64,000 nucleotides of DNA from a virus (lineage: Duplodnaviria; Caudoviricetes). A model generated the notes under the pieces. That model worked only from the letters and a program-made list of their open reading frames with translations, had not been told where the DNA came from and ran no database searches. The stretch is taken from the IMG/VR virus record IMGVR_UViG_3300031951_000008; one strand, written 5' to 3'. Below are positions 47,505-64,000 of this stretch, one piece after another (the stretch's first letter is position 1; each line of letters begins with the position of its first letter). A program made the translations under genes and the position numbers.

Positions 47505-47834
47505 ATGCAAGATTCATTTGTAGTTATTGGTGATATCGTCAGAGGAGTATTAAAAACTCATGAGCAAAAGTATCGGTATAAGACCAGCATAAGCATTTAC
47601 GACATGAAATGCCAAGCCTCTTTTCTGATTTGCAAAAGTTCTTCGTTCAGAACAGCTAAACACTCGATTGAAATAGAGATGTTAAATACTTCTTTGCATT
47701 TGACACTTACTATTAACTCCAAGCCGCTGTCTATCAATAAATATGTCAGGACATTGACTATAGATTTATCAGACCCGAAATCATTGTGTTTAATTGAACA
47801 ATTATTGGTTAAGTTCTGTAGGAAAATAAAATGA
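47505..47834 (+). CDS. SLHDP-family paralog
   Basis: TIDLSDPKSLCLIEQLL. Confidence 0.7.
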   Translation: MQDSFVVIGDIVRGVLKTHEQKYRYKTSISIYDMKCQASFLICKSSSFRTAKHSIEIEMLNTSLHLTLTINSKPLSINKYVRTLTIDLSDPKSLCLIEQLLVKFCRKIK

Positions 47835-49597: not shown

Positions 49598-49598
49598 C

Positions 49599-51125: not shown

Positions 51126-51183
51126 CGATATTCGTAGCTATCATTAGCCTGCCACACACTGCTAACTCAATTAGGAATCTATT

Positions 51184-51480
51184 ATGATCAAGCCGACTCA
51201 AGTTAAGTTTAGCATAAGATTATTTAGGAATGAACACGCGTGGGCTATTAGCTCAGTGTCTAGTAGACTAGGCCAAATCACTAGCGTGCTTACCCACACT
51301 GCAGACTCTGTGATAGGTGAACGATATTCGATTGGCACTTTGCCACTCGACTGCACACCAGAACTAGCATTAGCAAAATTGCGGGAAGTGGTTACAGGAG
51401 AAAATCATCATTATTTGGCAGGAGAAGTTACGGCTTCTGGAGATCTTTATTGGATTCAATGGGAATCCAATGCTGCTTAG
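51184..51480 (+). CDS. Hypothetical protein
   Basis: 98 aa. Confidence 0.65.
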   Translation: MIKPTQVKFSIRLFRNEHAWAISSVSSRLGQITSVLTHTADSVIGERYSIGTLPLDCTPELALAKLREVVTGENHHYLAGEVTASGDLYWIQWESNAA

Positions 51481-51504
51481 TATTATACTTTAATCGAGGA
51501 TCGC

Positions 51505-52050
51505 ATGACAACAATTAGGCATTTCGCTGCTAAACTGACTGACCTACAATTCAAGCACAATCCCCAATATACCCCGGTCGATTTTTTCTTTGAAATCAAA
51601 GTAGATAGATCTGGACTTAAGCCTAAAGACTCTTTTACTGCTGGAGTCTTCTCTTATAACAGTCTCGATGATGCGATTTCTCACCATTGTCGTCAACATC
51701 TACAAGAAAATGGTCTAACTGCTCACAAATCTTCGCAATTTGATGTATTTTTCGAGGTCCATGAGATCAAATTAGTCAGCGGCCAAGCCGTGCGTAACTT
51801 ATGGAAGAAAAAGCTTGGTGTCGCAGTACCAATTCGGCCTACAACGGAGGAAGAATTTTATGAAGAGCAGCGTCAAGCACTTGAGCAACTTCCACCTGAA
51901 TTTAGAGAATTCGTGTCTTCGCACGCTTGGAGCGATAAACACGCTTACGGATATGACGAAGTCCTTAGCGAGGTCCGTGACCTTGCCAACGAGTTAGCTG
52001 GCTGCGTTTCATCTTACAACTTACGAATCATGCGCGAAAAGACAAGCTAA
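51505..52050 (+). CDS. Hypothetical phage protein
   Basis: GAGG SD; 181 aa. Confidence 0.7.
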   Translation: MTTIRHFAAKLTDLQFKHNPQYTPVDFFFEIKVDRSGLKPKDSFTAGVFSYNSLDDAISHHCRQHLQENGLTAHKSSQFDVFFEVHEIKLVSGQAVRNLWKKKLGVAVPIRPTTEEEFYEEQRQALEQLPPEFREFVSSHAWSDKHAYGYDEVLSEVRDLANELAGCVSSYNLRIMREKTS

Positions 52051-52289
52051 TGCAAAGACTATTAGATTGCAGGATCAATGAACTACAAGGTTATGTTGAC
52101 TTCTATCAACGGTTAATAACCTGTGATTGTGATGAGCTTCGCGAATGCGTTCGTAGAGATCTATACCTTGATGTTGACGCTGATATAGATGCTAATATCC
52201 TTAATATGCCTGACGCTATAAGTCTTTATCGCATTTTAAATGCCCCTACTGCTAAGACACGGAATTGGCTCATTCAAAGGATGAAGTGA
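52050..52289 (+). CDS. Hypothetical protein
   Basis: TAATG overlap, 79 aa. Confidence 0.6.
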   Translation: MQRLLDCRINELQGYVDFYQRLITCDCDELRECVRRDLYLDVDADIDANILNMPDAISLYRILNAPTAKTRNWLIQRMK

Positions 52290-52292
52290 AAA

Positions 52293-52415
52293 ATGGAAGC
52301 TTTTAGGTCATTACACCCTGCTGTCCAAGCGACCTTAATAGTAGTGGCAGGCATAGTAGCGGTTGTTTACATTCTGGCTCTGTTTACGGACGTTTTTCAT
52401 AGTAGACGCGATTAA
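52293..52415 (+). CDS. 40-aa membrane peptide (not in ORF track)
   Basis: MEAFRSLHPAVQATLIVVAGIVAVVYILALFTDVFHSRRD*; fills the gap between genes. Confidence 0.55.
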   Translation: MEAFRSLHPAVQATLIVVAGIVAVVYILALFTDVFHSRRD

Positions 52416-52417
52416 CT

Positions 52418-52765
52418 GTGTTAGAAATTGTGCGAGCTATTGCGACTACATTGCATCACGATACAGGATTCGATTTTTCTATATTAGACACGACCTATTC
52501 ACTTGGGCTGTACTTCACTTCTTCTGTTAGAGCACATCCAATTATCTGTTTTCTGTTCGATTCTAGACAAGCTAATGGGCTTGTAGCAACAATCATACCA
52601 CTAGAGGTAACTGCGGTGTCTAATAAAAAATTTTCAGACACGTTACGAGTTATACTCAATACTAATCAGATCGGCTCTCCAGCCATAAACATGGATAATC
52701 CAGATTCTATTATTAAACTTAGGATGGTATTGCAAAAAGTCAACGAAATGGTAAAATTAAGTTAA
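52418..52765 (+). CDS. SLHDP-family paralog
   Basis: MLEIVRAIATTL; INMDNPDSIIKL. Confidence 0.75.
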   Translation: MLEIVRAIATTLHHDTGFDFSILDTTYSLGLYFTSSVRAHPIICFLFDSRQANGLVATIIPLEVTAVSNKKFSDTLRVILNTNQIGSPAINMDNPDSIIKLRMVLQKVNEMVKLS

Positions 52766-52770
52766 GTTTA

Positions 52771-53235
52771 ATGATCAACATAATAGAATTACTTTGTGAT
52801 TATTTCATAACTACTAAGCCTCAAATAGGTGGCTTTAAATTTATTTATGGGCTTGATGACACTAATTGCGATCAAGGTTACTTCATAAAAGTAATAGATA
52901 ATAACAACATAGATATTTTTCTACGCTTAGAAAAATTGGTAATCAGAGCAGGCTGTATTATTCGTACTAGTCTTAAAGGTGCTGAATTAAAAATATCTAG
53001 AGACTTGCATGTTACTCATAGGATTAAGTGGCATACATTTTTTAATGTTACGGCTATTCCCTTAGTTCCGTATCGGTTAGGTATATCTTATGTAGCTCAA
53101 CATCTAGACATTCAAGATCCCGCATGTATCGAACAATTATTATCTATATTAAACGAACAGTTTCGTACGGTGATTAACCATGAGTCGTTAGGTACAATCA
53201 TTCGCCATCTTCGGTATGATTTAACATACCGATGA
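52771..53235 (+). CDS. SLHDP-family paralog
   Basis: MINIIELLCDYF; LDIQDPACIEQL. Confidence 0.75.
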   Translation: MINIIELLCDYFITTKPQIGGFKFIYGLDDTNCDQGYFIKVIDNNNIDIFLRLEKLVIRAGCIIRTSLKGAELKISRDLHVTHRIKWHTFFNVTAIPLVPYRLGISYVAQHLDIQDPACIEQLLSILNEQFRTVINHESLGTIIRHLRYDLTYR

Positions 53236-53247
53236 GTTCGACAATGC

Positions 53248-53700
53248 TTGAATTCCTACAAAATAACCTTTCACAGTTCGAGGCCGATTTTGTCTGAGTC
53301 TCTACAGGCCATTGCGAGCGAGTTAGATTCTTATCTACCGAGCACTCTTGCTATATGCATTAATGAATCTACCGCAACTCAAGCTAGCATACGATTTGGT
53401 TATGTAACTGATTCACATCTTACGATAACGATTCCGACATTGTTCGGTGAAGATTGGGTATTTACGATCTTTATAAATGAAGACAATGTCGTTTTATTAT
53501 GCCGTAAGTTTATCCGGACTTTCCACATTCCAACCGGCTCTTCCAGATTAATATTACAACCACAGACTGCTCGCAAAGAGTCTCAAGGGCGACATGCATC
53601 TTTCACCTTTAGGAAAGTAAGCCTTCATGATCCATCAATGATGTACAAGATAGTACAAATAGTTAAACAACGATCAGAGACAATTATGGGCAGTAAATGA
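53248..53700 (+). CDS. SLHDP-family paralog
   Basis: ESLQAIASEL; VSLHDPSMMYKI. Confidence 0.75.
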   Translation: MNSYKITFHSSRPILSESLQAIASELDSYLPSTLAICINESTATQASIRFGYVTDSHLTITIPTLFGEDWVFTIFINEDNVVLLCRKFIRTFHIPTGSSRLILQPQTARKESQGRHASFTFRKVSLHDPSMMYKIVQIVKQRSETIMGSK

Positions 53701-54062
53701 ATGACGTAATTAGAGCTATTGAACAACATTTGAAACTAACTATCGGCGATCAGTTACATATTTATTCAAGAGACGACCACATATCTGCCTATGTCGTTTA
53801 TTCATATGTAGGCAATCCTATTAGGTGCGAACTGTGGTTCACCATGGAGTTCTCATTGGATACTGTAGAGATACGAAGCAGAGAACAAGTAACTGAATGG
53901 AGTGATGGAGTTCAAACTGGCATTATTAGCGACAAAAAACTTGGAACTGACCAATTAAGCCTAAGTGATCCTCAACTAATCCCAAAAATTTTCGCCAGTC
54001 TCCAATTTCAGTTTAGTAAATCAGACGATCGTCGCTGGTTACGTTTAGTATCAAACTTATAA
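53697..54062 (+). CDS. SLHDP-family paralog
   Basis: MNDVIRAIEQHL; LSLSDPQLIPKI. Confidence 0.8.
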   Translation: MNDVIRAIEQHLKLTIGDQLHIYSRDDHISAYVVYSYVGNPIRCELWFTMEFSLDTVEIRSREQVTEWSDGVQTGIISDKKLGTDQLSLSDPQLIPKIFASLQFQFSKSDDRRWLRLVSNL

Positions 54063-54065
54063 ATC

Positions 54066-54443
54066 ATGCAACAGTTACTACAAGCTTTAGAAAGTATTCG
54101 TGTGTATGGCTTTGCGGACAATAGTGCTTATTTATTTGAATTAGACTTGTAGGCTCTAATGATTGTTGAATCTGAGGTGCTAAGCGTCAACTATTAACCT
54201 GTCGCCATCGATGTAGATTCTAACAGAATGAATACCAATATGTGCGTATTCATTCTCGATCTTTACGTGTTGGATGATACTGAATATCCTCTCCTGCCGC
54301 GAGCTAAAATGGATATATATGATGAGGAATCGAGGCTAATAATGGCAGGAAGCAAGGAGATCACGCTACATGGCCCTGACATTGTCACAAGAATATTAAA
54401 CACCATACAGACATTGGTCTCTGAGATTAGATTCGATTATTAA
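54066..54443 (+). pseudogene. SLHDP-family paralog with two in-frame stops
   Basis: MQQLLQAL..FELDL(TAG)ALM..NY(TAA)PVA.. continues in frame into ORF 54228 with ITLHGPDIVTRI. Confidence 0.7.
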
Positions 54444-54445
54444 TT

Positions 54446-55003
54446 ATGGCCGTCAAACCATTTCTCGACTTGAGTAGAGTATTCATTCCTAAATTCAAAG
54501 TACCAATGAATCACTTACAAGACCAGCTTATCAACGAGATAGCTGTATTAGAAGCCATAAAGATGGCTTTAAGCTGCCATTTCGACAAGAGCATTCCTAA
54601 CAATGTGGTCTCCTACCATATTTATACAACGCCATCAGCATCTAAGCACTACAGACAATGTGGACGCTTCGAGATTAATCATCGCATGAAACCATACCTG
54701 TTAGTTGATGAACTTTATACAGTAAACACCGAGTGTCATGATATGAAAATCTGTGTAAATGGAGATTCTATTAGATTGTCAACTACTCACGGTGAAATGG
54801 GAGCGGTCCTAATCGATGTGAGCTTGCATAATACTGAATTTTTATCTAAAATCGTAGCAATAGTGCAAGAATTCGTTCAAGTTCATAGAAATCATGGTGG
54901 TAGTTTAGAAAACGCTTTGAAGCGATTAGCTAGTCTACGATCTCGTGGAGGAAATGGTTCACCGTTCGTTTTCGACGTATTGAGTCGTCCTAATGAATCA
55001 TAA
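54446..55003 (+). CDS. SLHDP-family paralog
   Basis: VLEAIKMAL; VSLHNTEFLSKI. Confidence 0.75.
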   Translation: MAVKPFLDLSRVFIPKFKVPMNHLQDQLINEIAVLEAIKMALSCHFDKSIPNNVVSYHIYTTPSASKHYRQCGRFEINHRMKPYLLVDELYTVNTECHDMKICVNGDSIRLSTTHGEMGAVLIDVSLHNTEFLSKIVAIVQEFVQVHRNHGGSLENALKRLASLRSRGGNGSPFVFDVLSRPNES

Positions 55004-55367
55004 TTATACAGCCACAGAAGCGATGCTAGTAGAGTTGCAGAAAGCGATTTTGTCGCTTAGTGTTGATTTGACAAAAATTCAATGCTATTTAATTAGTTCG
55101 CATTTGTCAATTAAGAATTTAGAGGATCGAGTTACCACGACTATCACTATAGTTAATGGCTATATTTACATAGAAGCCAACCCATATTACGATGGCTCTT
55201 ATATAATTGCAGATCCTCCTAAGGCCATAGTTCCAAGGTATACAACAAATACAAGTCCTCGTTTGGAAAACAAGTTCGCCGTCAGTCTACATCACCAAGA
55301 CTTTATAGACCAAACAGTTAAAGCTATTGTGAATATGGGATCGGTTATATTCAATGATAGACCCTGA
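54993..55367 (+). CDS. SLHDP-family paralog
   Basis: MLVELQKAI; VSLHHQDFIDQT. Confidence 0.75.
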   Translation: MNHNYTATEAMLVELQKAILSLSVDLTKIQCYLISSHLSIKNLEDRVTTTITIVNGYIYIEANPYYDGSYIIADPPKAIVPRYTTNTSPRLENKFAVSLHHQDFIDQTVKAIVNMGSVIFNDRP

Positions 55368-55746
55368 GCAAAGTATCGCCTTCACAATACTGCAGCAAAT
55401 AAGGGAAACTATATTGCAGGAGTCTAAATATTTTGTTGAGTTTATTGGTAAAGAACTCACGCCAGCATACAATGGGGTCCTGTCTTTATCTGTCAGCAAT
55501 CCGACCACTGGCGTATACTTGGTGGCTGCTATTAAGAAAGACCGTATCATACTAGTAGCAATACCATCCGTACCTTACCTTAATAACCTACACAAAGCCA
55601 CACTTAATCCAGGTCTATATGATCTTAATCCGGTTCTTACAAAAACCATACGGGACATAGACAACAAAAGGCAAATAATTAGTTTACATGACCAGGATTT
55701 CATCAATATAACCGTGCGAACAATAATACAGATGTGCGAGCAGTAA
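55354..55746 (+). CDS. SLHDP-family paralog
   Basis: ILQQIRETI; ISLHDQDFINIT. Confidence 0.75.
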   Translation: MIDPEQSIAFTILQQIRETILQESKYFVEFIGKELTPAYNGVLSLSVSNPTTGVYLVAAIKKDRIILVAIPSVPYLNNLHKATLNPGLYDLNPVLTKTIRDIDNKRQIISLHDQDFINITVRTIIQMCEQ

Positions 55747-56088
55747 ATGATAGACTTAATGCAAGCCATATATGACTACCTTAAATCACGGCTTGAATCA
55801 GAATCGGTATCCATAGATATATTATGGAGATTACAAGTTACGCCAGGCAAATTGCAAAACCAGATCGAAGTAGGAAATGAATGCTATATACAAGTTCTTA
55901 AGGAGGTCAATCTTAACATTTATATAAGGGAACAGATATTAGAAATAACGCAGTATAATGCTTTCCATTCTTATCCCACCATGCTGATTTGTATACACGA
56001 TCCACAATTATTAAGCAAGTTAGAGCAGGCTGTGATGGCACCTGTTGATATAGGTAGATATCCTCACGAAACAATAATCAAGTGGTAG
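55747..56088 (+). CDS. SLHDP-family paralog
   Basis: MIDLMQAIYDYL; ICIHDPQLLSKL. Confidence 0.8.
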   Translation: MIDLMQAIYDYLKSRLESESVSIDILWRLQVTPGKLQNQIEVGNECYIQVLKEVNLNIYIREQILEITQYNAFHSYPTMLICIHDPQLLSKLEQAVMAPVDIGRYPHETIIKW

Positions 56089-56094
56089 AGCACC

Positions 56095-56418
56095 TTGGAG
56101 ACCATGCTAAATTCACCTGACATTATCCTAGCTATCAAAGACCTCATTGAACCGATGGTCGTAGCAGAGGGGTATAAAGCAAGCATTGTAAATGATTCAC
56201 TGTGGTCCGGAACAGATCTTGCACAAGCATATATTAGCATAGATCCAGCCACGGATAGACTTGAAGATGGTTTATCAATAAGCTTTGATCATGACAAGTT
56301 AATTGTTAGGAGGTATCACTTACAAGCTCGTGGTACAACTAACATCCATATCAGTTTACACGAACAGGATTTGTTGCCTAAATTAGTAAAAGCGATAACT
56401 ACGCTCATAACTTACTGA
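56095..56418 (+). CDS. SLHDP-family paralog (recent duplicate A)
   Basis: SPDIILAIKDLIEP; ISLHEQDLLPKLVKAITTLI. Confidence 0.8.
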   Translation: METMLNSPDIILAIKDLIEPMVVAEGYKASIVNDSLWSGTDLAQAYISIDPATDRLEDGLSISFDHDKLIVRRYHLQARGTTNIHISLHEQDLLPKLVKAITTLITY

Positions 56419-56480
56419 CACCGAACGCCGCTATACTAGCCCTACCCTTTTCATAGATCTATAGCTCAAAGACAGCGACA

Positions 56481-56834
56481 ATGCAAAAATCACCTGATAT
56501 TATTCTAGCTATCAAAGGCCTCATTGAACCGATAGTCGCAGCAGGTGGGTATAAAGCAAGCATCCATAAGGACAATACCAGAACCTATATATACATAGAT
56601 CAAATCATAACTGAAGATTACATACCCAGATATAGTTTATCAATAAATATAGATAGCGATAGGTTAGTTATAATGAGATATGACTTACAAACTCAATCTG
56701 TAGATTTTGTAGTAGCTTACTCGGTAACAACTTGTTATATCAGTCTACACGACCCGGATTTATTACCAGAATTAGTAAAAGCGATAACTACACTCATCAA
56801 AAACCATGATTATATACCACGATGTAGTATTTGA
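56481..56834 (+). CDS. SLHDP-family paralog (recent duplicate B)
   Basis: SPDIILAIKGLIEP; ISLHDPDLLPELVKAITTLI. Confidence 0.8.
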   Translation: MQKSPDIILAIKGLIEPIVAAGGYKASIHKDNTRTYIYIDQIITEDYIPRYSLSINIDSDRLVIMRYDLQTQSVDFVVAYSVTTCYISLHDPDLLPELVKAITTLIKNHDYIPRCSI

Positions 56835-56843
56835 CTATTACCC

Positions 56844-57248
56844 ATGGACTGCCTTATCCAAGCTATCTCACAACACCTACAACAACGATTTCATCGCGAA
56901 ATAGCCGCTGAAGTCATAGTTATAGAACAGCCACAACTAACAATTAAGCCATCTCAATACGGACCAGTACATGAATTTGTTGTCAAAAGCCAATTAGATA
57001 ACGGTACGGTAATTCATCACATTGCAGACAACGGAAGCAAGCTCGATGTAACATCTTCCGCATATGTCCCCACGTGGGACGATCCCTATCGATATTTAGG
57101 CGAAGCCATAATAGATACAGTAGATCCAGATAGCTTAAAGCTGTTAGATGATTTAATAGCCAAATGGCTACCAAATAACGACCAGCAGGCTGGTAGCTAC
57201 TTCATCTTCGACAAAGCACTCGTATGTGTTAGAGGTCAGATACTTTAA
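56844..57248 (+). CDS. SLHDP-family paralog
   Basis: MDCLIQAISQHL; IDTVDPDSLKLL. Confidence 0.8.
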   Translation: MDCLIQAISQHLQQRFHREIAAEVIVIEQPQLTIKPSQYGPVHEFVVKSQLDNGTVIHHIADNGSKLDVTSSAYVPTWDDPYRYLGEAIIDTVDPDSLKLLDDLIAKWLPNNDQQAGSYFIFDKALVCVRGQIL

Positions 57249-57283
57249 TCGCCAAATGGTTACATATGTGGAGGATTAGTGTT

Positions 57284-57607
57284 GTGCAAGACTTGATCCA
57301 AGCGATATACGGACACTTAAAAAACGAGTTATTCTCCAGGCCAGGAATGCCTACTTTGGTCGGCGTTATAACCGACAATAAGATAAGGCTTAAAGTCAGT
57401 AGCGAAAAATACGAGATCCAAATATCTATCCTTGGTGTACCACGCACGGCATTTCACGTGGTCAAGTATCGTAATTATACGCCTGTAATTACGCAGAGCC
57501 ATATTATTAGTTTACATGACCCAAACTTCCTAAGCGAAATAGAGCAAGCTGTAATTGATTTAGCAACCTTCCCAAGAATAACACCTAAACTGGCAAAGAA
57601 TGAATAA
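57284..57607 (+). CDS. SLHDP-family paralog
   Basis: GGAGG SD then GTG: (M)QDLIQAIYGHL; ISLHDPNFLSEI. Confidence 0.8.
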   Translation: MQDLIQAIYGHLKNELFSRPGMPTLVGVITDNKIRLKVSSEKYEIQISILGVPRTAFHVVKYRNYTPVITQSHIISLHDPNFLSEIEQAVIDLATFPRITPKLAKNE

Positions 57608-57980
57608 TACTACTGTAGTTCTTCTACAAATAGCCGATCTTATCAGCAATAGGTTGCCGGACTGCAGTGTAGACACTAACCATGTTAATCCTAATTCACA
57701 CATAAGACAACTTATTTATATCAAGTATCAGGGCAATTATATAGCTACACTAATAATTGACGGCGATACTATAAAGCTCTTGCAATATATTGATAGTAAT
57801 TATTGGGTACGCAAGACACAACAACGTAATAAAGAACTACAAGGAGTAAAAGACTACATAGCAAGTGTCAGTCTACACGACCACAATTTTGAGAGCAAAA
57901 TAATAGATGGAATCAAACTCATACAAAGCTATAATCTCGTGTATATACGCCGAGTACTACGGCCCAGAAAACGTCGATAA
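57600..57980 (+). CDS. SLHDP-family paralog
   Basis: VLLQIADLI; VSLHDHNFESKI. Confidence 0.8.
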   Translation: MNNTTVVLLQIADLISNRLPDCSVDTNHVNPNSHIRQLIYIKYQGNYIATLIIDGDTIKLLQYIDSNYWVRKTQQRNKELQGVKDYIASVSLHDHNFESKIIDGIKLIQSYNLVYIRRVLRPRKRR

Positions 57981-57998
57981 TGTGACAAGAGATAAACA

Positions 57999-58319
57999 AT
58001 GCAAGACCTAGTCTCAGCTATATTTCAACATCTCAAGCAAAGGCTGCCGCACATCAACATATCGACCTACAATTGCAGCAAGATAGTTAACGGTATGGCC
58101 GTGGAGAGTCTAGGCATAAAGATTAGGTTCACTGAGGAATATTTAGACATAAGCCTAGACACAACCATGAGTCAGATAAAAGTTAACCACCATAATAAAT
58201 TACCAGCCGACGTAGCGTGGACTGTTGAAAATTTGCAGCCGAAGTCAATGATCCATATCGATCTAAATGACCCTAACTCCTTAGAACTGTTAATCGAATA
58301 TATCACCAAAAGAGCATAA
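57999..58319 (+). CDS. SLHDP-family paralog
   Basis: MQDLVSAIFQHL; IDLNDPNSLELL. Confidence 0.8.
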   Translation: MQDLVSAIFQHLKQRLPHINISTYNCSKIVNGMAVESLGIKIRFTEEYLDISLDTTMSQIKVNHHNKLPADVAWTVENLQPKSMIHIDLNDPNSLELLIEYITKRA

Positions 58320-58321
58320 TT

Positions 58322-58831
58322 ATGGATACCTCTACTAATTCAGTACCAGATGCTGAAAGCCTTATACTGCGATCCACTGCAGACCATATAAAAGAAAGGC
58401 TGAAGGAGAATCCGCATCTTATCTCTTGTGCATATTTTCATTATACTGTACCACGGTCAATAGAGATACGATGCGAGATAGTCAAAGAAATACAACATCC
58501 AGAAATCCAAGAGGTGGATTCATGGACAGGGACATGCGAAACTCCAGAGGGATGGAGGCTACCTCCCGTCCGGCAAGCTGCTAGTGAGCCACAAATTATA
58601 TATCTCCTGCCTAAGGTTGTTATAATACACGTAATTACCTTACAGTCAGATCGTCTAATAATAGCCTCAAAATGCTTTGTCGGCACCACAAAACGCTCCC
58701 TATACGGACGAGGTCGCGAAACCTCATTAGATATACATGTACCGGACCTTATCGATCAAATAGTCGAAATAGTTAGCGATATGGCCTATCCTAAGTCGCA
58801 GGCAGAAACATACTTAGATAATACGCCCTAG
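58322..58831 (+). CDS. SLHDP-family paralog
   Basis: ILRSTADHI; LDIHVPDLIDQI. Confidence 0.75.
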   Translation: MDTSTNSVPDAESLILRSTADHIKERLKENPHLISCAYFHYTVPRSIEIRCEIVKEIQHPEIQEVDSWTGTCETPEGWRLPPVRQAASEPQIIYLLPKVVIIHVITLQSDRLIIASKCFVGTTKRSLYGRGRETSLDIHVPDLIDQIVEIVSDMAYPKSQAETYLDNTP

Positions 58832-58872
58832 CCGCCGTTCACACAAAGTAAAGCTGTTGCCACAAATAAATT

Positions 58873-59211
58873 ATGCGAGACTTAACAATAGCAATATATG
58901 AACATCTCTGTCGAGCCACCCCCGGAAAAAGACGAGCCTCTTGTAAGCCACTCCACGATCACATATATTTGAGATTTATCGGCCCCGGAGAACGCGACCA
59001 ATTAGCACCAGGCAGCTGGGTAATATTCATAGAAACAGACACATCATACGAAATAAAAATCAACGCAAAAGCCCAGCTTCAGATCATATCTTACGTGGAA
59101 AACCAGGAAAGCTCTGAATGGCCTCCTAATCATATAGAAGTAACAACCATAGACCTCAACGAACCAAACTGCCTAGAACGACTCACTCGACTAATAAACA
59201 AATGCAACTGA
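58873..59211 (+). CDS. SLHDP-family paralog
   Basis: MRDLTIAIYEHL; IDLNEPNCLERL. Confidence 0.8.
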   Translation: MRDLTIAIYEHLCRATPGKRRASCKPLHDHIYLRFIGPGERDQLAPGSWVIFIETDTSYEIKINAKAQLQIISYVENQESSEWPPNHIEVTTIDLNEPNCLERLTRLINKCN

Positions 59212-59531
59212 TACAAGCCATATACGACCACTTAATGCAAGCAATTCCAGAACGCAGGTACGGACGTATATCTCAGAACTACAACGATGAATTAACTATA
59301 GAAATACAAACCCACAAAATGTTTGAAATCACAATCGCAGAAGATCTGAACAGTCTCAAGATAAAATCATACTATTACATATATCGAGATTCTGTCGAGC
59401 CAGGCAATGATGTACCTCTTTATTCAGGCTTAGACTACAACTGGATCGATATCCATGCAACTAACCTATTAGATCTACTAATACATATAATAAAGACAAA
59501 GTCCCAAGCCGATGAATTCGCAATACTATGA
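59202..59531 (+). CDS. SLHDP-family paralog
   Basis: MQLIQAIYDHL; IDIHATNLLDLL. Confidence 0.8.
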   Translation: MQLIQAIYDHLMQAIPERRYGRISQNYNDELTIEIQTHKMFEITIAEDLNSLKIKSYYYIYRDSVEPGNDVPLYSGLDYNWIDIHATNLLDLLIHIIKTKSQADEFAIL

Positions 59532-60322
59532 GGAATTCGATGAGCCAGACAAACACAGAAATGCTTTTGTCTCTTCGTGACCACCTGAGACAAAAGCTAC
59601 AAGGTTATGAACAAATGATGGTAGAGTTATACGTGTATCCACACCAATCTCATATATTGGTAGTGTATGTTATACGCGTACCCGAACCACTGACAAGAGC
59701 CCACACCATCCAACTACAGCCAGACACAGACATAGTTAATATCGAAACTATTGATTATGAAGCTTACGGCAAAAACGGCAACAAGATAGACAGCCACAAC
59801 ATCAGTATCTGTCGACCGGACTTCTTGGAACAAATCGAACGAGTAGCCACAAACATGCAAGGCCAAGCCACACCAACATTACTCGCCATATCAAAGCACT
59901 TAGAAGAACTATTGCGAGATCGTCTGTCACCAGCACACCATCGAGAGTTATACCAAAAAATCTATAAAATAGACATTTATACATATGCTACGTCACAAGA
60001 ACGAATTAAAGTTGCTATAGAGGTTTTCGCAACAGCACCAACTACTATGCCATATCATGCTGGAACCTGCTACCTCCAAATAAAAGACGGGAAGGTAGGC
60101 CTAAATATATGCGTAAGCCAAACCGCCCAACGCCAGTTAATCGCCGGGACCAGCATGCTTAGAGGCGAACAGTTTTACGACATAGATGAATATGTTATAG
60201 ACCTGAATCGGCCAAACGCACTAGAGCAAATAACACAACATATAGTAACAAACGTAACAACAGGCATCACCGTCTGGTTAAGTGAATGCGAGTACGTAAA
60301 AGCCAAGACCAACCAAGTATGA
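59528..60322 (+). CDS. SLHDP-family paralog with two tandem domains
   Basis: LLSLRDHL..ISICRPDFLEQI, then MQGQ..LLAISKHL..IDLNRPNALEQI. Confidence 0.8.
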   Translation: MRNSMSQTNTEMLLSLRDHLRQKLQGYEQMMVELYVYPHQSHILVVYVIRVPEPLTRAHTIQLQPDTDIVNIETIDYEAYGKNGNKIDSHNISICRPDFLEQIERVATNMQGQATPTLLAISKHLEELLRDRLSPAHHRELYQKIYKIDIYTYATSQERIKVAIEVFATAPTTMPYHAGTCYLQIKDGKVGLNICVSQTAQRQLIAGTSMLRGEQFYDIDEYVIDLNRPNALEQITQHIVTNVTTGITVWLSECEYVKAKTNQV

Positions 60323-60735
60323 TACAACTCATAAAAGCATTGCATAACCACCTCCGAAAAACTTATCACGACCAAGTCGTACTATACGAGTATGGCGAAG
60401 GACCAAACCAAAAGCAAGGGCTAATAGTCAACATTTATGAAAAAGACGGCATCAAGGAGGAACTAACACACTGTGTTATCATAGTGGACCCAGACGATTC
60501 CAACCAGTTAAGAGTCACTAAAATTAGACAATCCATCGTACAAACAGTACGAGATGGTCGACACTTTGACTCGCTCAACCATCTCCTCGACCTGGCAGAC
60601 AATAAACTTATCCACTTCATGGCCTTTAACTATGTGCCACTCGTCGATTACAGCACCAAGAGGTGCTACCAAAATATAGACCTACATGCACCGAACTTCT
60701 TAGATATAGTAGACAGCATAATCAAAAGCAAATGA
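60319..60735 (+). CDS. SLHDP-family paralog
   Basis: ATGA overlap start MIQLIKALHNHL; IDLHAPNFLDIV. Confidence 0.8.
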   Translation: MIQLIKALHNHLRKTYHDQVVLYEYGEGPNQKQGLIVNIYEKDGIKEELTHCVIIVDPDDSNQLRVTKIRQSIVQTVRDGRHFDSLNHLLDLADNKLIHFMAFNYVPLVDYSTKRCYQNIDLHAPNFLDIVDSIIKSK

Positions 60736-61226
60736 AAGAACTCGTTCAAGCTATAAAAGAACACCTAGAACAAACATTCCGAGATCCAGATATAAATATT
60801 ATAGATACTATTCACCACCAACCAAAGACACGGCGATTCGGACATTACGCGACAATCAGATACACCTTAGAAGGGTTATGGCCCATAAATAATCAGTCTA
60901 ATGCGACACAGTCACAAAAGCAATATGTCAATACCGTTCTAAGTTTCGCTCAAAGCGAATTAATTATAGCAGCGTTCAACCACATAATTAGTGGCACGCT
61001 TGGAGACTTTTCGATACACCCACGTATCAAATTAGCATATCACGAGCCGGGTCTACTAGATAGAATAACCACAATCGCATTAGAACATAAACACTTAATC
61101 CAAAACCCAACAATATACAAGCAACTATTGGATTGCTGGTCATGTAGAGGCCCATATCACCCTCATGCGATAGACCACTTAGAAGAAATAAGCAAGTCAA
61201 TTTGGTCACACCACCAACACAATTAG
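60732..61226 (+). CDS. SLHDP-family paralog
   Basis: ATGA overlap start MKELVQAIKEHL; LAYHEPGLLDRI. Confidence 0.8.
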   Translation: MKELVQAIKEHLEQTFRDPDINIIDTIHHQPKTRRFGHYATIRYTLEGLWPINNQSNATQSQKQYVNTVLSFAQSELIIAAFNHIISGTLGDFSIHPRIKLAYHEPGLLDRITTIALEHKHLIQNPTIYKQLLDCWSCRGPYHPHAIDHLEEISKSIWSHHQHN

Positions 61227-61349
61227 CTGTCAATTCAACAAGGCTCTGTAGCTGCCACACAAACGTATAGACTACCCACGTGCGGGACCACATGTTTAAC
61301 GGCCTAACAAATGAAGCACAAGACATAATTCAAAACGGGAACCGAGCAA

Positions 61350-61544
61350 ATGAATCTAGACGAAACAGCCAAAAGAAAAGTAGACGCATTGATCCACATA
61401 CTAGAGGGCGAAGTCATGCTCCTAAGGGACACTGTTCACGAATCAATGCACTGGAACGACGCTAGGGCAGCACAAGTAGCGATATCCAAAATCCAATCAA
61501 GTGCAAACAAGATCCTCCTTGCCCTAGGGATAGAGAAGACATAA
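61350..61544 (+). CDS. Small coiled-coil hypothetical protein
   Basis: 64 aa helical. Confidence 0.55.
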   Translation: MNLDETAKRKVDALIHILEGEVMLLRDTVHESMHWNDARAAQVAISKIQSSANKILLALGIEKT

Positions 61545-61605
61545 ACGAACATCCACTAAAAACCATGGCCCACACCTAAACATAGGCATAGGATAAATCA
61601 CGATA

Positions 61606-61809
61606 ATGAAAGACAAACTCATAAAACTGATCGAAAGCACTCACGGCCCCATGGAATGGGGAGGATCAATGGGCTGGGGAGACGGCATAATCACCTGCTC
61701 AGTTAAAAAAGATGACATGATAATCAAGGGAGTGAGTGGCGGTGATTGCACATCGCTTGAAGCCCTAATCGATCTAGCTAGCAAATTGAATATTAAACTC
61801 GGAACATAA
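61606..61809 (+). CDS. Hypothetical protein
   Basis: AGGA SD, 67 aa. Confidence 0.6.
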   Translation: MKDKLIKLIESTHGPMEWGGSMGWGDGIITCSVKKDDMIIKGVSGGDCTSLEALIDLASKLNIKLGT

Positions 61810-61842
61810 AGAGCTAACAACATCGTCCCTGGGGATACAGTT

Positions 61843-62100
61843 ATGATAGCGAATGAGGCTATAGAAATCAACAAAAAGGCTACAGAAGGAAACTACGATT
61901 GCAAAGTAGCGATATTCGAGCTAATCGACGAATCGGGCGTAGACTACGCGTTTTTAAGCGGGTTTGGATATAAAGAGTCTTGGAAAGGCAAGGTCTGCTC
62001 AGGGCATCGCAATGATAATGGCACAATCACGTGGCAGCAGCCATGCGGCTGCGGTACCTACACGGCTGATGAATCTCACTTCAAAGAAATAAAGGCTTAA
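61843..62100 (+). CDS. Hypothetical protein with Cys motifs
   Basis: 85 aa, VCSGH..PCGCG. Confidence 0.6.
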   Translation: MIANEAIEINKKATEGNYDCKVAIFELIDESGVDYAFLSGFGYKESWKGKVCSGHRNDNGTITWQQPCGCGTYTADESHFKEIKA

Positions 62101-62145
62101 GATATATGGCAACGATACTACTAGGACAACGAAGCCAAACAACCA

Positions 62146-62616
62146 ATGAACGACCTCACCCAAGCAATCAAGCAACACCTAACCGAAATATTCGAACAAA
62201 GCCGGGCACAATATAGAAGCATGTTTGTTTCTGAAGTGCAATGCAGGCATACCATCTTCTACGATATAGAGCTAATCGACTATGATGACGATACAAGGAA
62301 GAATGGCTATCGAAATATCGGTTCAAATTACGCGACCCTATCATACCGACTCAGCTGCACAATACCAGGCCTACACATACAAACAAGAATAGACTTCCTG
62401 AGGCAAAATGAAATAATATACGAAACCCACTACATCAAAATCAAAAACAGCCACAACAAAGAAACAAGCACAAGCTCACCTAAGATCAAAATATCAATAC
62501 TCCAACCAGACTTCCTAGACAGAATCACCACAATCGCCCAAGAACACATCAAAATAATAAACAACCCCAAACTAATGGATACTAAAATGAAAAGGGCCAA
62601 CATGTTTGTCTGGTAG
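62146..62616 (+). CDS. SLHDP-family paralog
   Basis: MNDLTQAIKQHL; ISILQPDFLDRI. Confidence 0.8.
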   Translation: MNDLTQAIKQHLTEIFEQSRAQYRSMFVSEVQCRHTIFYDIELIDYDDDTRKNGYRNIGSNYATLSYRLSCTIPGLHIQTRIDFLRQNEIIYETHYIKIKNSHNKETSTSSPKIKISILQPDFLDRITTIAQEHIKIINNPKLMDTKMKRANMFVW

Positions 62617-62649
62617 GGATTTTATCAACAGGCACAGATTATAAACTAG

Positions 62650-63273
62650 TTGTCAATTCTCCATTATCCTCTCAAGACCATGCTATACATCAAAACAATC
62701 AAAATTAGCCAAAACCACAGATGCCTCAAGCAAGGCCTAGCCATAGAAGCCAAACAACTAACACTCCTCGTCGGAGATCAAGGATCAGGCAAATCAACAA
62801 TCCTACAAGGCTTGGCCCAACTAGGTCAATCTAAAGAATCATTCATAACCATAGAGTTGACACCAGAAGGCGAAAAAGGTGTAAACTCATACTATTTCGA
62901 TTCCGAAAAGCACAATCCTCGCATTAAAGACCCACATCTTTACGCCACAGCAGGCGGAAAGAACGAAGGAATCGGCTTCGCATCTGCACTAAAAAGCCGA
63001 TTCCAGTCTCACGGTGAAGTAATAAAAGAATTCACTGTCAATCCCATCAAAAAGGCACAAAACTGCATCGTTAATATCGACGAGCCAGAATCAGGCCTCT
63101 CAATAAGAAATCAATATAAACTAGTCAGTGCGATCCAAGCAGCTATACATAACAAAACTCAATTCTTCATAGCCACCCACTGCCTACCACTGATTCAATC
63201 TGTAGACCAAGTCTACTCCATGGAACATCTACGATGGATGGATGCAAAAGAGTTCATACAAACCCAAATGTAG
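62650..63273 (+). CDS. ABC-type/AAA P-loop ATPase (stand-alone)
   Basis: Walker A GDQGSGKS, SHGE signature-like, Walker B NIDEPESGL, IATH switch; true start may be ATG 62680. Confidence 0.88.
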   Translation: MSILHYPLKTMLYIKTIKISQNHRCLKQGLAIEAKQLTLLVGDQGSGKSTILQGLAQLGQSKESFITIELTPEGEKGVNSYYFDSEKHNPRIKDPHLYATAGGKNEGIGFASALKSRFQSHGEVIKEFTVNPIKKAQNCIVNIDEPESGLSIRNQYKLVSAIQAAIHNKTQFFIATHCLPLIQSVDQVYSMEHLRWMDAKEFIQTQM

Positions 63274-63294
63274 AGACTCATAGCCTACCTAAGC

Positions 63295-63615
63295 ATGAAC
63301 CAAACCATAAGTGCAATCCTCGACTACCTTAAAACAAACCTAGGCAACCCCATAGCAGGCTCAACCGTACAATGGTACCCATCAGGCATACAAATCACCA
63401 AACCATCAATTAAATTATATATCGATATAATCATAACCGCCGACACAAAAGCCAACATAATAATTGAAGGAATTCGCTATAAAGTAGTCACCAGGGATAG
63501 TAATAGCGAAGTTGTGCAGCCCATAACAAAACGATTCATAATATACGCACACCAGCCAAACCTCCTAGAACAAATACTAACAGCAATCAACCAAATAACA
63601 CAACTCACCGACTAA
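63295..63615 (+). CDS. SLHDP-family paralog
   Basis: MNQTISAILDYL; IYAHQPNLLEQI. Confidence 0.8.
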   Translation: MNQTISAILDYLKTNLGNPIAGSTVQWYPSGIQITKPSIKLYIDIIITADTKANIIIEGIRYKVVTRDSNSEVVQPITKRFIIYAHQPNLLEQILTAINQITQLTD

Positions 63616-63643
63616 CCAGGCAGCACAAAGTCTCCGCCCTATA

Positions 63644-64000
63644 ATGACAATGCTAGAAACACTCGAAGCAATAAAAACCCACCTCAACAACGACCCCACC
63701 TTACAAACAAACCAAATATATGTCATCGGTCCCGACAGATCAATCGGGTGGGGTAAAACGTGGGGTAAAACAGGAAGATCAGCTAATTCCCACCAAGCCA
63801 AAAGACTCCTAGCTTACCACCACTACAAGGCCAAGAGCCGAACAAGCTACGTAGCACAAATCAGCATCAAACAAGACACAATCCACATAATAAAAAGCAC
63901 CCTAGACCTATTAGACCCACATCCAAGCATAGAGATCGACCTGAACGACCCCAACTTCATCCGACAAATAGTACAAAATCTCTACCAAATCGCCCAAAAA
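63644..64000 (+). CDS. SLHDP-family paralog, truncated by window end (not in ORF track)
   Basis: MTMLETLEAIKTHL...IEIDLNDPNFIRQIVQNLYQIAQK, open to base 64000. Confidence 0.8.
   Translation, partial: MTMLETLEAIKTHLNNDPTLQTNQIYVIGPDRSIGWGKTWGKTGRSANSHQAKRLLAYHHYKAKSRTSYVAQISIKQDTIHIIKSTLDLLDPHPSIEIDLNDPNFIRQIVQNLYQIAQK

What the first reader, a model, noticed from the sequence alone, without database searches (positions are those of the whole stretch)
52418..64000. Large tandem array of an unnamed, hypervariable single-domain protein family (about 24 genes, continuing past the window)
Nearly every ORF here (typically 105-185 aa) begins with an amphipathic helix (e.g. MQDLVSAIFQHL, MNDLTQAIKQHL) and ends with a strand-loop-helix motif (ISLHDPNFL, IDLNDPNSL). 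The middles are beta-rich and unalignable by eye. Genes are translationally coupled (ATGA/TAATG). A conserved frame around a variable core, mass duplication, one double-domain fusion and one pseudogene look like a birth-and-death repertoire of binding proteins, such as an anti-defence or host-takeover arsenal on one scaffold. The helix-sheet-helix order recalls frataxin/CyaY-like folds, but that is only a guess. This is the strongest candidate for an undescribed system in the window.
Basis: partly seen in the sequence, partly recalled or inferred. Interest (0 to 1): 0.85.

Follow-up and report, generated by a model that had tools for sequence, protein, structure and literature searches.

The report
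Tandem small-protein gene array in giant phage
An uncultured giant phage of about 320 kb devotes about 14.5 kb to roughly 30 back-to-back, very diverged copies of one previously undescribed small protein; such gene arrays are already known from other giant phages, and what this one does is untested.

Summary
An HMM built from the window's own ORFs gathers 22 ORFs at E<=1e-12, against a best E of 0.12 for shuffled ORFs. Leave-one-out E is <=1e-5 for 17 of 22. With one weak member, one motif-level member and one broken copy, that makes 24 genes at 52418-64000. One more lies at 47505-47834. The array runs about 3 kb past the window.

One gene has two domains. One copy is a pseudogene, broken by small inversions. 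AlphaFold (pLDDT 88) gives helix, five strands, helix. The conserved residues are almost all buried hydrophobics.

There is no Pfam, PHROG, PADLOC or PDB sequence match. Of 1.84 billion protein representatives only 22 match, all from this phage, a relative about 90% identical, and one more distant lineage that also carries an array of at least 16 copies.

Fold matches (CyaY, TriTu, PsiB, T3SS chaperones; Z 6-7.4) are at background level, so the frataxin idea is only topology.

Against the close relative, whole genes are gained and lost, one paralog pair shows gene conversion, and dN/dS is 0.52 versus 0.23 in flanking genes.

Best reading: a birth-and-death repertoire of soluble binding proteins. 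Their targets and timing are unknown.

This scan has found arrays of other small-protein families in other giant phages, and read this same stretch in another window.

The parts
47505..47834 (+). Family member outside the array, 109 aa
   Evidence: HMM E 1.1e-12; leave-one-out E 8e-4; recovered as P0008 in the exhaustive search.
52418..52765 (+). Probable very divergent first member, 115 aa
   Evidence: It has the N-terminal MLEIVRAIATTL and the C-terminal AINMDNPDSIIKL motifs. Leave-one-out HMM E is only 1.1, so membership rests on the motifs.
52771..53235 (+). Family member, 154 aa
   Evidence: HMM E 9.7e-16; leave-one-out E 0.01; ortholog in L002 at 86% aa identity.
53248..53700 (+). Family member, 150 aa as the longest ORF (a gene caller gives 136 aa)
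   Evidence: Leave-one-out E 3.6e-6; P0003.
53697..54062 (+). Family member, 121 aa; ATGA overlap with the gene before it
   Evidence: Leave-one-out E 1.1e-6; junction checked.
54066..54443 (+). Broken family member. It consists of a 28-aa N-terminal remnant (54066-54152), two adjacent segments of about 84 and 85 nt (about 54100-54183 and 54181-54265) that are each reverse-complemented relative to L002, and a 71-aa C-terminal ORF (54228-54443).
   Evidence: blastn shows minus-strand matches to L002 8272-8334 and 8381-8465. L002 8251-8619 encodes an intact 122-aa member (HMM E 3.2e-5). Sequences and translations were compared.
54446..55003 (+). Family member with an N-terminal extension, 185 aa
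   Evidence: HMM E 2.6e-20; leave-one-out E 8.8e-4; 99% aa identical to the L002 ortholog.
54993..55367 (+). Family member, 124 aa; most of it is absent from relative L002
   Evidence: Leave-one-out E 3.8e-5. Window 55010-55291 has no counterpart in L002. The ESM Atlas model has pTM 0.64.
55354..55746 (+). Family member, 130 aa; the one copy with a clear ortholog in the distant lineage B
   Evidence: Leave-one-out E 9.2e-6. Reciprocal best hit with L009 4430-4810, 53 bits.
55747..56088 (+). Family member, 113 aa
   Evidence: Leave-one-out E 6.6e-10.
56095..56834 (+). Recent paralog pair, 56095-56418 (107 aa) and 56481-56834 (117 aa)
   Evidence: phmmer E 4e-22 between the two. Direct repeats D1, D3 and D4. 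dS is 0.15 in the N-terminal part against 1.9 in the core. L002 holds only the ortholog of the second copy.
56844..57248 (+). Family member, 134 aa
   Evidence: Leave-one-out E 3.9e-5.
57266..57607 (+). Family member, 113 aa
   Evidence: Leave-one-out E 1.3e-9.
57600..57980 (+). Weak family member, 126 aa. A 34-nt segment (57800-57833) is inverted in L002, and the reading frame stays open in both genomes.
   Evidence: Leave-one-out E 1.6e-3. Inversion seen. P0020 carries the alternative loop peptide.
57999..58319 (+). Family member, 106 aa; the copy that was modelled
   Evidence: Leave-one-out E 5.6e-9. AlphaFold2 pLDDT 88, pTM 0.76, order helix, five strands, helix.
58322..58831 (+). Family member with a large insert, 169 aa
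   Evidence: HMM E 1.6e-23; leave-one-out E 2e-4.
58873..59211 (+). Family member, 112 aa
   Evidence: Leave-one-out E 1.8e-8.
59202..59531 (+). Family member, 109 aa; absent from L002
   Evidence: Leave-one-out E 1.1e-9. Window 59248-59537 has no counterpart in L002.
59528..60322 (+). Two-domain fusion, 264 aa. In L002 a 58-nt inversion (window 59660-59717) puts a stop codon into domain 1.
   Evidence: Two HMM domains, residues 1-110 and 117-241. Inversion and translations.
60319..60735 (+). Family member, 138 aa from the ATGA-overlapping start (the longest ORF starts at 60286)
   Evidence: Leave-one-out E 1.2e-8; P0013; junction checked.
60732..61226 (+). Family member, 164 aa from the ATGA-overlapping start (the longest ORF starts at 60663)
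   Evidence: Leave-one-out E 6.8e-7; P0002; nearest paralog is 62146-62616.
61350..62100 (+). Three small ORFs of 64, 67 and 85 aa that do not belong to the family
   Evidence: No HMM hit; no Pfam or PADLOC hit; conserved in L002.
62146..62616 (+). Family member, 156 aa; absent from L002
   Evidence: Leave-one-out E 6.3e-11. The block 61915-63656 has no counterpart in L002.
62650..63273 (+). Inserted minimal ABC-type P-loop ATPase, 207 aa; not a family member and absent from L002
   Evidence: Pfam AAA_15 E 3.6e-14 and AAA_21 E 8.8e-11. PADLOC AriA/PtuA/GajA-type ATPase models, E from 8e-16 to 1e-10. Absence from L002.
63295..63615 (+). Family member, 106 aa
   Evidence: Leave-one-out E 2.9e-8.
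63644..64000 (+). Family member cut by the window end; 134 aa in full
   Evidence: Leave-one-out E 2.1e-7. The full ORF is in L004 at 9995-10399.

Best explanation
What is shown. The stretch is a lineage-restricted tandem array. It holds 24 genes in the window and about 30 in all over about 14.5 kb. The genes are very old, very diverged paralogs. Each encodes a soluble single-domain protein of about 105-190 aa, and one encodes two domains.

The fold is a two-layer alpha/beta sandwich. An N-terminal amphipathic helix and a C-terminal helix are predicted to pack on one face of a five-stranded antiparallel sheet. The C-terminal helix is capped by the h-x-L-H-D-P-x-h-L motif. Only the buried hydrophobic positions and the helix cap are conserved. 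Loops, inserts, the alternate non-conserved strand positions, charge (pI 4.8-9.7) and tails differ from copy to copy.

The array turns over by duplication, whole-gene loss, gene conversion between the conserved ends, and small inversions flanked by short inverted repeats. The surviving copies stay under weak purifying selection.

What is inferred. The copies are a repertoire of binding modules on one scaffold. Each would recognise a different host or competitor protein. The array would then be an accessory host-interaction or counter-defence set, not an enzyme family and not part of the core replication or morphogenesis machinery. The targets, the time of expression and whether the proteins work as monomers are unknown.
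For: One real family: HMM against shuffles and leave-one-out tests.

Fold: AlphaFold2 pLDDT 88, pTM 0.76, order helix, five strands, helix. The ESM Atlas's own models of two members have pTM 0.71 and 0.64.

Conservation is confined to core positions. HMM columns with more than 0.9 bits are I/L/V/M/A, apart from H16, S/D93, H95 and P97. No conserved polar cluster suggests catalysis.

Soluble and diverse in charge: the highest 19-residue hydropathy is below 1.5, and pI runs from 4.8 to 9.7.

Restricted to one phage clade. Only 22 of 1.84e9 protein representatives reach E<=1e-3. All are window proteins, orthologs in contigs of about 320 kb, or one lineage B protein. A second profile added only further proteins of the same two lineages. 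tblastn against 50,697 phage records found nothing.

The multi-copy state is kept in a lineage with no nucleotide similarity. L009 plus L001/L010 carry at least 16 tandem members. One is a clear cross-lineage ortholog; the others are lineage-specific clusters.

Turnover against the relative that is 84-94% identical at nucleotide level:
- Three blocks of genes are present or absent.
- One paralog pair corresponds to a single gene in the relative.
- Two genes are broken by inversions, one in each lineage.
- One inversion is in frame and replaces a loop.

Mosaic paralog pair: dS 0.15 in the N-terminal part against 1.9 in the core.

Selection: concatenated dN/dS is 0.52 (bootstrap 0.42-0.65) for 14 family orthologs and 0.23 (0.15-0.39) for 12 non-family neighbours: ten upstream flanking genes and two small ORFs at 61350-61809 inside the array. 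By region it is 0.58 in the core, 0.44 in the N helix and 0.36 in the C motif.

Nearest fold neighbours, all weak, are small protein-binding modules: TriTu immunity protein, PsiB, type III secretion chaperones, AcrIIA11 and frataxin.
Against: There is no functional evidence of any kind: no partner, no expression data, no phenotype.

All fold matches are at the level the tool calls background (Z below 8), so the likeness to binding modules may be no more than a common arrangement of helices and strands.

dN/dS is below 1 everywhere, so an arms race is not demonstrated. Two genomes are too few for site-level tests.

No known anti-defence, regulator or toxin gene is linked to the array. No promoter class could be assigned.

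The shared fold rests on sequence homology, one confident AlphaFold model and two ESM Atlas models. The two-domain protein modelled poorly (pLDDT 58).
Confidence: 0.5

Rival explanations
1. Virion-packaged internal or ejected proteins, like the polymorphic internal proteins of T-even phages. The conserved N-terminus would be a head-targeting signal, and the variable bodies would act in the newly infected cell.
For: The conserved N-terminal segment in front of a variable body recalls the T4 internal-protein loci (general knowledge of T4 IPI-IPIII). An earlier unchecked scan note (e1-5390545) proposes an (I/L)-x-E-tagged cargo set in this genome. About 13 of 22 members have some [IL]-x-E within the first ~35 residues (read). 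One weak fold neighbour is a phage P1 head chain (9vz0_I, Z 6.5).
Against: The N-terminal helix is modelled as an integral, well-packed part of the fold (pLDDT 91-96). The column where a cleavage-site Glu should sit is not conserved: HMM column 15 is D 0.17, E 0.14, Q 0.13, and the [IL]-x-E occurrences fall at different positions. The C-terminal motif is as conserved as the N-terminus, which a targeting signal does not explain. No head or protease gene is adjacent.
Confidence: 0.12
2. Largely neutral duplicated DNA that filled a large capsid (the genome-expansion ratchet proposed for jumbo phages). The copies would be decaying and have little individual function.
For: Hua et al. 2017 propose tandem duplication as a route to larger jumbo-phage genomes (PMC5646251). 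dN/dS is twice that of the flanks. Copies are lost or broken in each lineage.
Against: dN/dS of 0.52, with an upper bootstrap bound of 0.65, is clearly below 1. At least 21 very old copies at 10-30% identity keep open frames and the same core pattern. A lineage without nucleotide similarity keeps at least 16 copies. About 95% of the stretch is coding.
Confidence: 0.1
3. Chaperones or adaptors for the phage's own proteins, working like class I type III secretion chaperones. Each copy would escort a different cargo, for example for packaging or assembly.
For: Weak fold likeness to SycH, SicP, ExsC, SchA and CesT-type chaperones (Z 5.5-6.3; DUF2170/CesT cluster at TM 0.52). The two-domain fusion would fit a module that works in pairs.
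Against: All Z values are at background level. No cognate cargo genes alternate with the copies. The scores do not single out the chaperones over the other neighbours.
Confidence: 0.08
4. Sequence-specific nucleic-acid-binding regulators, as suggested for the zinc-ribbon expansion of about 35 copies in phage G.
For: A lineage-specific expansion of small proteins in phage G was read as possible transcription factors or DNA-binding proteins (PMC7824862). Some copies here are basic, with pI 9.3-9.7.
Against: There is no HTH, zinc-ribbon or other nucleic-acid-binding signature. Half of the copies are acidic. No conserved basic patch appears among the conserved columns.
Confidence: 0.05
5. True frataxin/CyaY homologs acting in iron or iron-sulfur cluster handling.
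For: Same order of secondary structure. VIA-align Z 7.1, rmsd 2.6 over 78 residues to CyaY 4hs5, and Z 5.6-6.3 to other frataxins.
Against: No Pfam frataxin match for any of 28 members. Foldseek gives TM 0.29 and E 0.2-0.4. Helix 1 and strand 1 carry no conserved acidic ridge. Thirty copies of an iron chaperone have no obvious rationale.
Confidence: 0.02

Closest known systems
Tandem arrays of more than 30 similar genes in jumbo phages G and 121Q (Hua et al. 2017, PMC5646251), and the expansion of about 35 zinc-ribbon copies in phage G (Iyer et al. 2021, PMC7824862)
   Same: A giant phage genome (contigs of 320,971 and 323,894 bp). Dozens of same-strand, head-to-tail paralogs of one small protein. 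The family is confined to the lineage, and tandem duplication is the source.
   Different: This is a different protein family with no sequence match. The copies here are very diverged (10-30% identity), whereas the published arrays are described as 'very similar' genes. The fold is an alpha/beta sandwich, not a zinc ribbon. Here the turnover, gene conversion and micro-inversions are documented against a close relative.
Polymorphic internal-protein (ip) loci of T-even phages
   Same: T4-type phage (the head type is taken from an earlier scan note). A set of small proteins has a conserved N-terminal segment and variable bodies, in a region of changing gene content.
   Different: No conserved (I/L)-x-E cleavage site. 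The N-terminal helix is part of the fold. The C-terminus is conserved too. There are far more copies.
TriTu immunity protein (Pfam PF24689; PDB 7zhm_D) and bacterial arrays of immunity genes
   Same: A small alpha/beta sandwich of about 90-100 residues. It is joint top fold neighbour (Z 7.4; TM 0.52-0.58). As a concept, both are arrays of diverged small inhibitor proteins.
   Different: No sequence match to PF24689. No toxin gene next to the copies. Z is at background level, with rmsd 4.4.
Frataxin / CyaY (Pfam PF01491)
   Same: Helix, sheet, helix order, with two helices on one face of the sheet. Z 7.1, rmsd 2.6 over 78 residues.
   Different: No sequence match, no acidic ridge, Foldseek TM 0.29.
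PsiB (PF06290), class I type III secretion chaperones (CesT, PF05932) and AcrIIA11
   Same: Small alpha/beta protein-binding modules that appear among the fold neighbours (Z 6.8, 5.5-6.3 and 5.5; PsiB and CesT-type clusters).
   Different: No sequence match, and scores are at background level.

Membership tests
Tandem paralog arrays of jumbo phages (kind described by Hua 2017 and Iyer 2021) | Phage genome larger than 200 kb | tested here: met
   The window's proteins lie on a 320,971-bp contig and the relative's on a 323,894-bp contig. Phage-type genes in the window: Tail_P2_I and Mom.
Tandem paralog arrays of jumbo phages (kind described by Hua 2017 and Iyer 2021) | Dozens of head-to-tail, same-strand copies of one gene family | tested here: met
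   24 copies in the window and about 30 in all, every one on the + strand.
Tandem paralog arrays of jumbo phages (kind described by Hua 2017 and Iyer 2021) | Copies are 'very similar' (recent duplication) | tested here: not met
   Identity to the reference copy is 9-29%. Only one pair is recent. Nearest paralogs are only slightly closer in the array than chance would give (p 0.05).
Frataxin / CyaY (PF01491) | Sequence match to the family profile | tested here: not met
   No PF01491 hit for any of 28 members at E<=0.1.
Frataxin / CyaY (PF01491) | Alpha-beta-alpha sandwich fold superposable on frataxin | tested here: inconclusive
   VIA-align Z 7.1, rmsd 2.6 over 78 residues, tied with unrelated folds and below Z 8. 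Foldseek TM 0.29.
Frataxin / CyaY (PF01491) | Conserved acidic ridge on helix 1 and strand 1 for iron binding | tested here: not met
   HMM columns 6-32 show no conserved run of Asp or Glu, and pI ranges from 4.8 to 9.7.
TriTu immunity protein (PF24689) | Sequence match to the family profile | tested here: not met
   No hit.
TriTu immunity protein (PF24689) | Shared fold | tested here: inconclusive
   Z 7.4, rmsd 4.4 over 79 residues. TM 0.52 by query and 0.57-0.58 by hit against an Atlas cluster in which 77% of members carry TriTu.
TriTu immunity protein (PF24689) | Encoded next to its cognate TreTu/Rhs toxin | tested here: not met
   The neighbours are other copies. No toxin domain was found in the neighbouring ORFs that were scanned.
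T-even internal proteins (capsid-targeting sequence plus prohead-protease cleavage) | Conserved (I/L)-x-E cleavage site after a short N-terminal leader | tested here: not met
   HMM column 15, two residues after the conserved Ile13, is D 0.17, E 0.14, Q 0.13. [IL]-x-E occurs at varying positions in about 13 of 22 members.
T-even internal proteins (capsid-targeting sequence plus prohead-protease cleavage) | Presence in the virion | not testable with these tools
   This needs virion proteomics.
Class I type III secretion chaperones (CesT, PF05932) | Sequence match or a clear fold match | tested here: inconclusive
   No Pfam hit. Z 5.5-6.3. TM 0.52 to a DUF2170/CesT cluster.

The most novel reading that the evidence does not exclude
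The array is an arsenal of target-specific inhibitor proteins (immunity-like or anti-defence) on one alpha/beta scaffold of the TriTu / PsiB / secretion-chaperone type. Its repertoire would be renewed by a locally raised rate of micro-inversions and end-to-end gene conversion, in a zone of extreme strand asymmetry next to a replication-linked switch point.
Probability: 0.2. Interest if true: 0.7.

Novelty: new member of a known kind. Interest (0 to 1): 0.45.

Why it matters
Giant phages carry large blocks of genes with no known function, and tandem expansions of small proteins are a recurrent but unexplained part of them.

This array is a clean case for study:
- One confidently modelled scaffold.
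- About 30 old copies whose core is fixed and whose remaining positions, loops and inserts vary.
- Two further lineages for comparison.
- Direct evidence of how copies are born, recombined and killed.

If the copies prove to be specific inhibitors of host or rival-phage proteins, they would form a ready-made library of natural binders on a 100-residue frame. They would also point to new host defence targets.

The cluster of small inversions inside coding sequence, one of which rewrites a loop while keeping the frame open, is an unusual way of changing a protein. It deserves a genome-wide check.

Tried and rejected
Nucleotide and protein searches of cultured phages: megablast of the whole stretch found no match, and tblastn of one member found no match.

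Window's whole genome: not held. The relative's record is not held for the genome search either.

Foldseek against PDB, AlphaFold DB clusters, BFVD, Swiss-Prot and the Atlas: nothing at E<=1e-3, only uncharacterised phage proteins and generic sandwiches.

Homodimer test of 57999-58319 with complex prediction: 'no answer' (score 0.00). This is no evidence either way.

AlphaFold2 of the two-domain protein: pLDDT 58, too poor to say how the domains pack. Secondary structure is compatible with two helix-sheet-helix units.

Promoter and terminator searches:
- The sigma-70 scan gave no more sites than shuffles (56 against 54).
- The T4 late box TATAAATA was not enriched.
- TTTTCATAG, shared by two gaps in the array, was not enriched.
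- So expression timing could not be assigned.

No tRNA and no Rfam family in the array or its flanks.

Possible further members at 49599-50285 and 13186-13785(-): only the C-terminal motif aligns (hhalign probability 1-2%). They are not counted.

The T4-type (I/L)-x-E leader idea was rejected for this family.

The first two literature searches for phage paralog arrays returned nothing relevant.

Full report
**Setting.** No whole genome is held for the window. No cultured phage matches it at nucleotide level. The window carries phage genes: a Tail_P2_I baseplate-type domain, a Mom-like protein and glycosyltransferases. Its proteins occur on a 320,971-bp metagenomic contig, and a close relative lies on a 323,894-bp contig. 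I did not test the head type.

- Pairwise phmmer links only some of them.
- An iterative profile built from ten obvious copies converged on 22 ORFs at E from 3.5e-12 to 6.3e-31. Ten shuffles of every window ORF gave a best E of 0.12.
- Those scores include each sequence in its own model, so I repeated the search leaving each one out. Seventeen of 22 stay at E<=1e-5 and five fall between 2e-4 and 0.01. The best non-member is typically 0.002-0.1.
- 57600-57980 is a weak member. 52418-52765 fits at motif level only. 54228-54443 is half of a broken copy.
- The count in 52418-64000 is therefore 24, and one further copy lies at 47505-47834.
- 59528-60322 holds two full domains.
- Three small ORFs (61350-62100) and a 207-aa ABC-type P-loop ATPase (62650-63273) sit inside the array but are unrelated.

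**Extent.** L004 is 100% identical to the window. It shows two more members and a C-terminal fragment just beyond the window end. A 33,988-nt contig of the same lineage lists further genes of 145, 71, 181 and 191 aa before the strand changes. That places the end of the array about 3 kb past the window. This agrees with the length of about 14.5 kb given by the other reading of this stretch.

**Packing.** About 95% of the stretch is coding. Of 27 junctions, 8 overlap (four are ATGA) and 9 have gaps of 0-20 nt. No Shine-Dalgarno sequence is visible upstream of the starts.

**Fold.** AlphaFold2 was run on 57999-58319 with the 23 paralogs as its alignment. It gave pLDDT 88 and pTM 0.76, in the order helix 2-15, strands 20-30, 33-43, 47-54, 59-66 and 83-88, helix 94-105. 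The informative profile columns fall into three groups:
- A heptad-like set of I/L/A positions on helix 1.
- One or two I/L/V positions per strand.
- The motif I-(S/D)-L-H-D-P-x-(L/F)-L-x-x-I-x-x-x-I, which ends strand 5, caps helix 2 and lines it.

The only partly conserved polar positions are His16 (0.47), Asp63 (0.35), the S/D at column 93, His95 (0.30) and the Asp at column 96. Nothing resembles a catalytic or metal site. The proteins have no hydrophobic segment, and pI runs from 4.8 to 9.7. So the frame is fixed, while the remaining positions, the loops and the inserts are free to vary.

**Comparison with known families.**
- There is no Pfam, PHROG or PADLOC match, and no PDB sequence match.
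- Foldseek found nothing at E<=1e-3 in PDB, AlphaFold DB, BFVD or Swiss-Prot. The best rows are uncharacterised phage proteins.
- The exhaustive structural aligner gave a plateau at Z 7.4-6.0. It holds 1ylx (unknown function), the TriTu immunity protein, Mediator Med17, CyaY/frataxin (Z 7.1, rmsd 2.6, 78 residues), PsiB, Atg10 and several type III secretion chaperones. AcrIIA11 follows at Z 5.5.
- The tool states that a best Z of 7-8 is typical for models with no true match.
- The ESM Atlas's own models of two members point to the same mixed neighbourhood: TriTu, and CesT/DUF2170 by structure and PsiB by sequence features.
There is no profile match and no acidic ridge.

**Distribution.** A profile search of 1.84 billion representative proteins returned 22 hits at E<=1e-3. 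All are window proteins, their 85-99% identical orthologs, or one protein of a second lineage. A second profile that included that lineage added only more proteins of the same two lineages. Lineage B (L009, L001, L010) has no nucleotide similarity to the window. It carries at least 16 tandem members with the same end motifs. One of them is a reciprocal best match of 55354-55746. The distal copies cluster with each other, which indicates lineage-specific duplication.

**Dynamics.** The relative L002/L003 is 84-94% identical in nucleotides and syntenic from 46090 to 61915. The differences are:
- Most of 54993-55367 is missing in the relative, as are 59202-59531 and the block 61915-63656, which holds a family member and the ATPase.
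- The distal part of the relative's array (after the point matching window 61915) is made of mostly different family members.
- The window's recent pair 56095/56481 corresponds to a single gene in the relative. That gene is the ortholog of the second copy.
- Within the pair, synonymous divergence is 0.15 in the first 27 codons, 1.9 in the core and 0.8 at the C-terminus. This is the signature of gene conversion or recombination at the conserved ends.
- Three loci carry small inversions:
  - A 58-nt segment inside the two-domain gene, flanked by GTAG/CTAC. It introduces a stop codon in the relative.
  - A 34-nt segment in 57600-57980, flanked by TTATT/AATAA. It keeps both frames open and swaps a 12-residue loop.
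  - Two adjacent segments of about 85 nt at 54100-54265, with AGCTTA-like repeats at the breakpoints. They break the window's copy.
- No such inversion is seen in about 15.5 kb of flank compared in the same way. If inversions were spread evenly, all three loci would fall in the array with probability about 0.05. That is suggestive only.

**Selection.**
- Concatenated Nei-Gojobori dN/dS is 0.52 (gene bootstrap 0.42-0.65) for 14 family orthologs. It is 0.23 (0.15-0.39) for 12 non-family neighbours: ten flanking genes and two small ORFs inside the array.
- By region it is 0.58 in the core, 0.44 in helix 1 and 0.36 in the C-terminal motif and helix.
- The copies are therefore constrained, but about twice as relaxed as their neighbours, and the variable core is the least constrained part.
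- This fits accessory proteins with changeable surfaces. It does not prove positive selection.
- Nearest paralogs lie only slightly closer together than chance would give (p about 0.05), so most duplications are old.

**Interpretation.** The well-supported layer is a lineage-restricted birth-and-death array of one soluble alpha/beta scaffold. The functional layer is inference. A conserved core with variable surfaces, no catalytic signature, turnover of gene content and relaxed constraint together point to a repertoire of binding proteins aimed at host or competitor molecules.

I could not determine expression timing. Rivals are given in the Rival explanations section:
- Packaged internal proteins. 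This is weakened by the absence of a conserved cleavage site and by the structural role of the N-terminal helix.
- Neutral filler. This is weakened by dN/dS below 1 and by retention of the array in a distant lineage.
- Chaperones for phage cargo.
- Nucleic-acid binders.
- True frataxins.

**Novelty.** The protein family is new to Pfam, PHROG and the PDB sequence set. The kind of thing is not new. Hua et al. 2017 report tandem arrays of more than 30 similar genes in phages G and 121Q (PMC5646251). Iyer et al. 2021 report an expansion of about 35 zinc-ribbon copies in phage G (PMC7824862). This scan has found comparable arrays of other families in other giant phages. I therefore file it as a new member of a known kind, of moderate interest. 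The micro-inversions and the conserved strand-skew gradient are the less ordinary side observations.

Noticed in passing
window 54100-54265, 57800-57833, 59660-59717 (against L002 8272-8465, 11304-11337, 12916-12973): Small inversions of 34-85 nt inside coding sequence distinguish the window from a relative about 90% identical. They are flanked by inverted repeats of 4-6 nt. Two break a gene, one in each lineage. One keeps the frame open and replaces a loop (SNYWVRKTQQRN against YVNYVVVSCVPN). None is seen in about 15.5 kb of flank.
   Followed up: partly
window 49000-64000; L007 1-12000; L009 1-7080: A/C enrichment rises steadily on the + strand along the array. At third codon positions AT skew goes from about -0.2 to +0.68 and GC skew from about 0 to -0.7. 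The unrelated ATPase and the small ORFs are affected too. In the relative the skew flips sign sharply just after the last array gene (L007 at about 10,800-11,000), whatever the gene orientation. The distant lineage B shows the same gradient. This looks like a replication-linked or genome-end-linked mutational gradient, not a property of the family.
   Followed up: partly
window 62650-63273: A minimal 207-aa ABC-type P-loop ATPase lies inside the array (AAA_15/AAA_21; best PADLOC models AriA, PtuA and GajA). It is present in the window's lineage and absent from the relative L002.
   Followed up: partly
window 48440-48906: Two overlapping ORFs of 84 and 79 aa correspond to a single 153-aa DUF4326 gene in L002 (2654-3115). 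The window copy is frameshifted or carries an assembly error.
   Followed up: no
window 43577-46496 (-): Three adjacent paralogous genes of 410, 306 and 282 aa on the minus strand (phmmer E from 1e-21 to 1e-54). The 410-aa copy, the only one scanned, has no Pfam or PHROG match.
   Followed up: no
window 34124-34609 (+): Two adjacent short + strand ORFs are similar to each other (E about 1e-21), but they lie inside the 853-aa minus-strand ORF 32647-35208. This probably reflects an internal repeat of that large gene.
   Followed up: no
window 36188-37087: The 299-aa ORF carries a Sigma70_r4 domain in the precomputed Pfam hits of the relative. This is a second phage sigma-like gene about 15 kb upstream of the array.
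   Followed up: no
window intergenic gaps near 10950-11060, 28760-28830, 35490-35650, 38905-38945, 40005-40085, 61230-61345: Several gaps between divergent or + strand genes contain an ACGTAT/ATACGT-type motif next to A/T-rich runs. It may be a phage promoter element. The gap upstream of the array (52290-52417) lacks it.
   Followed up: no
window 49599-50285 and 13186-13785 (-): Two larger proteins contain a stretch resembling the family's C-terminal motif (KVNYDISQPEYLSIITSNI and FIDASKPDFIEQVLIAL). hhalign probability is only 1-2%. They could be very distant members or chance matches.
   Followed up: partly
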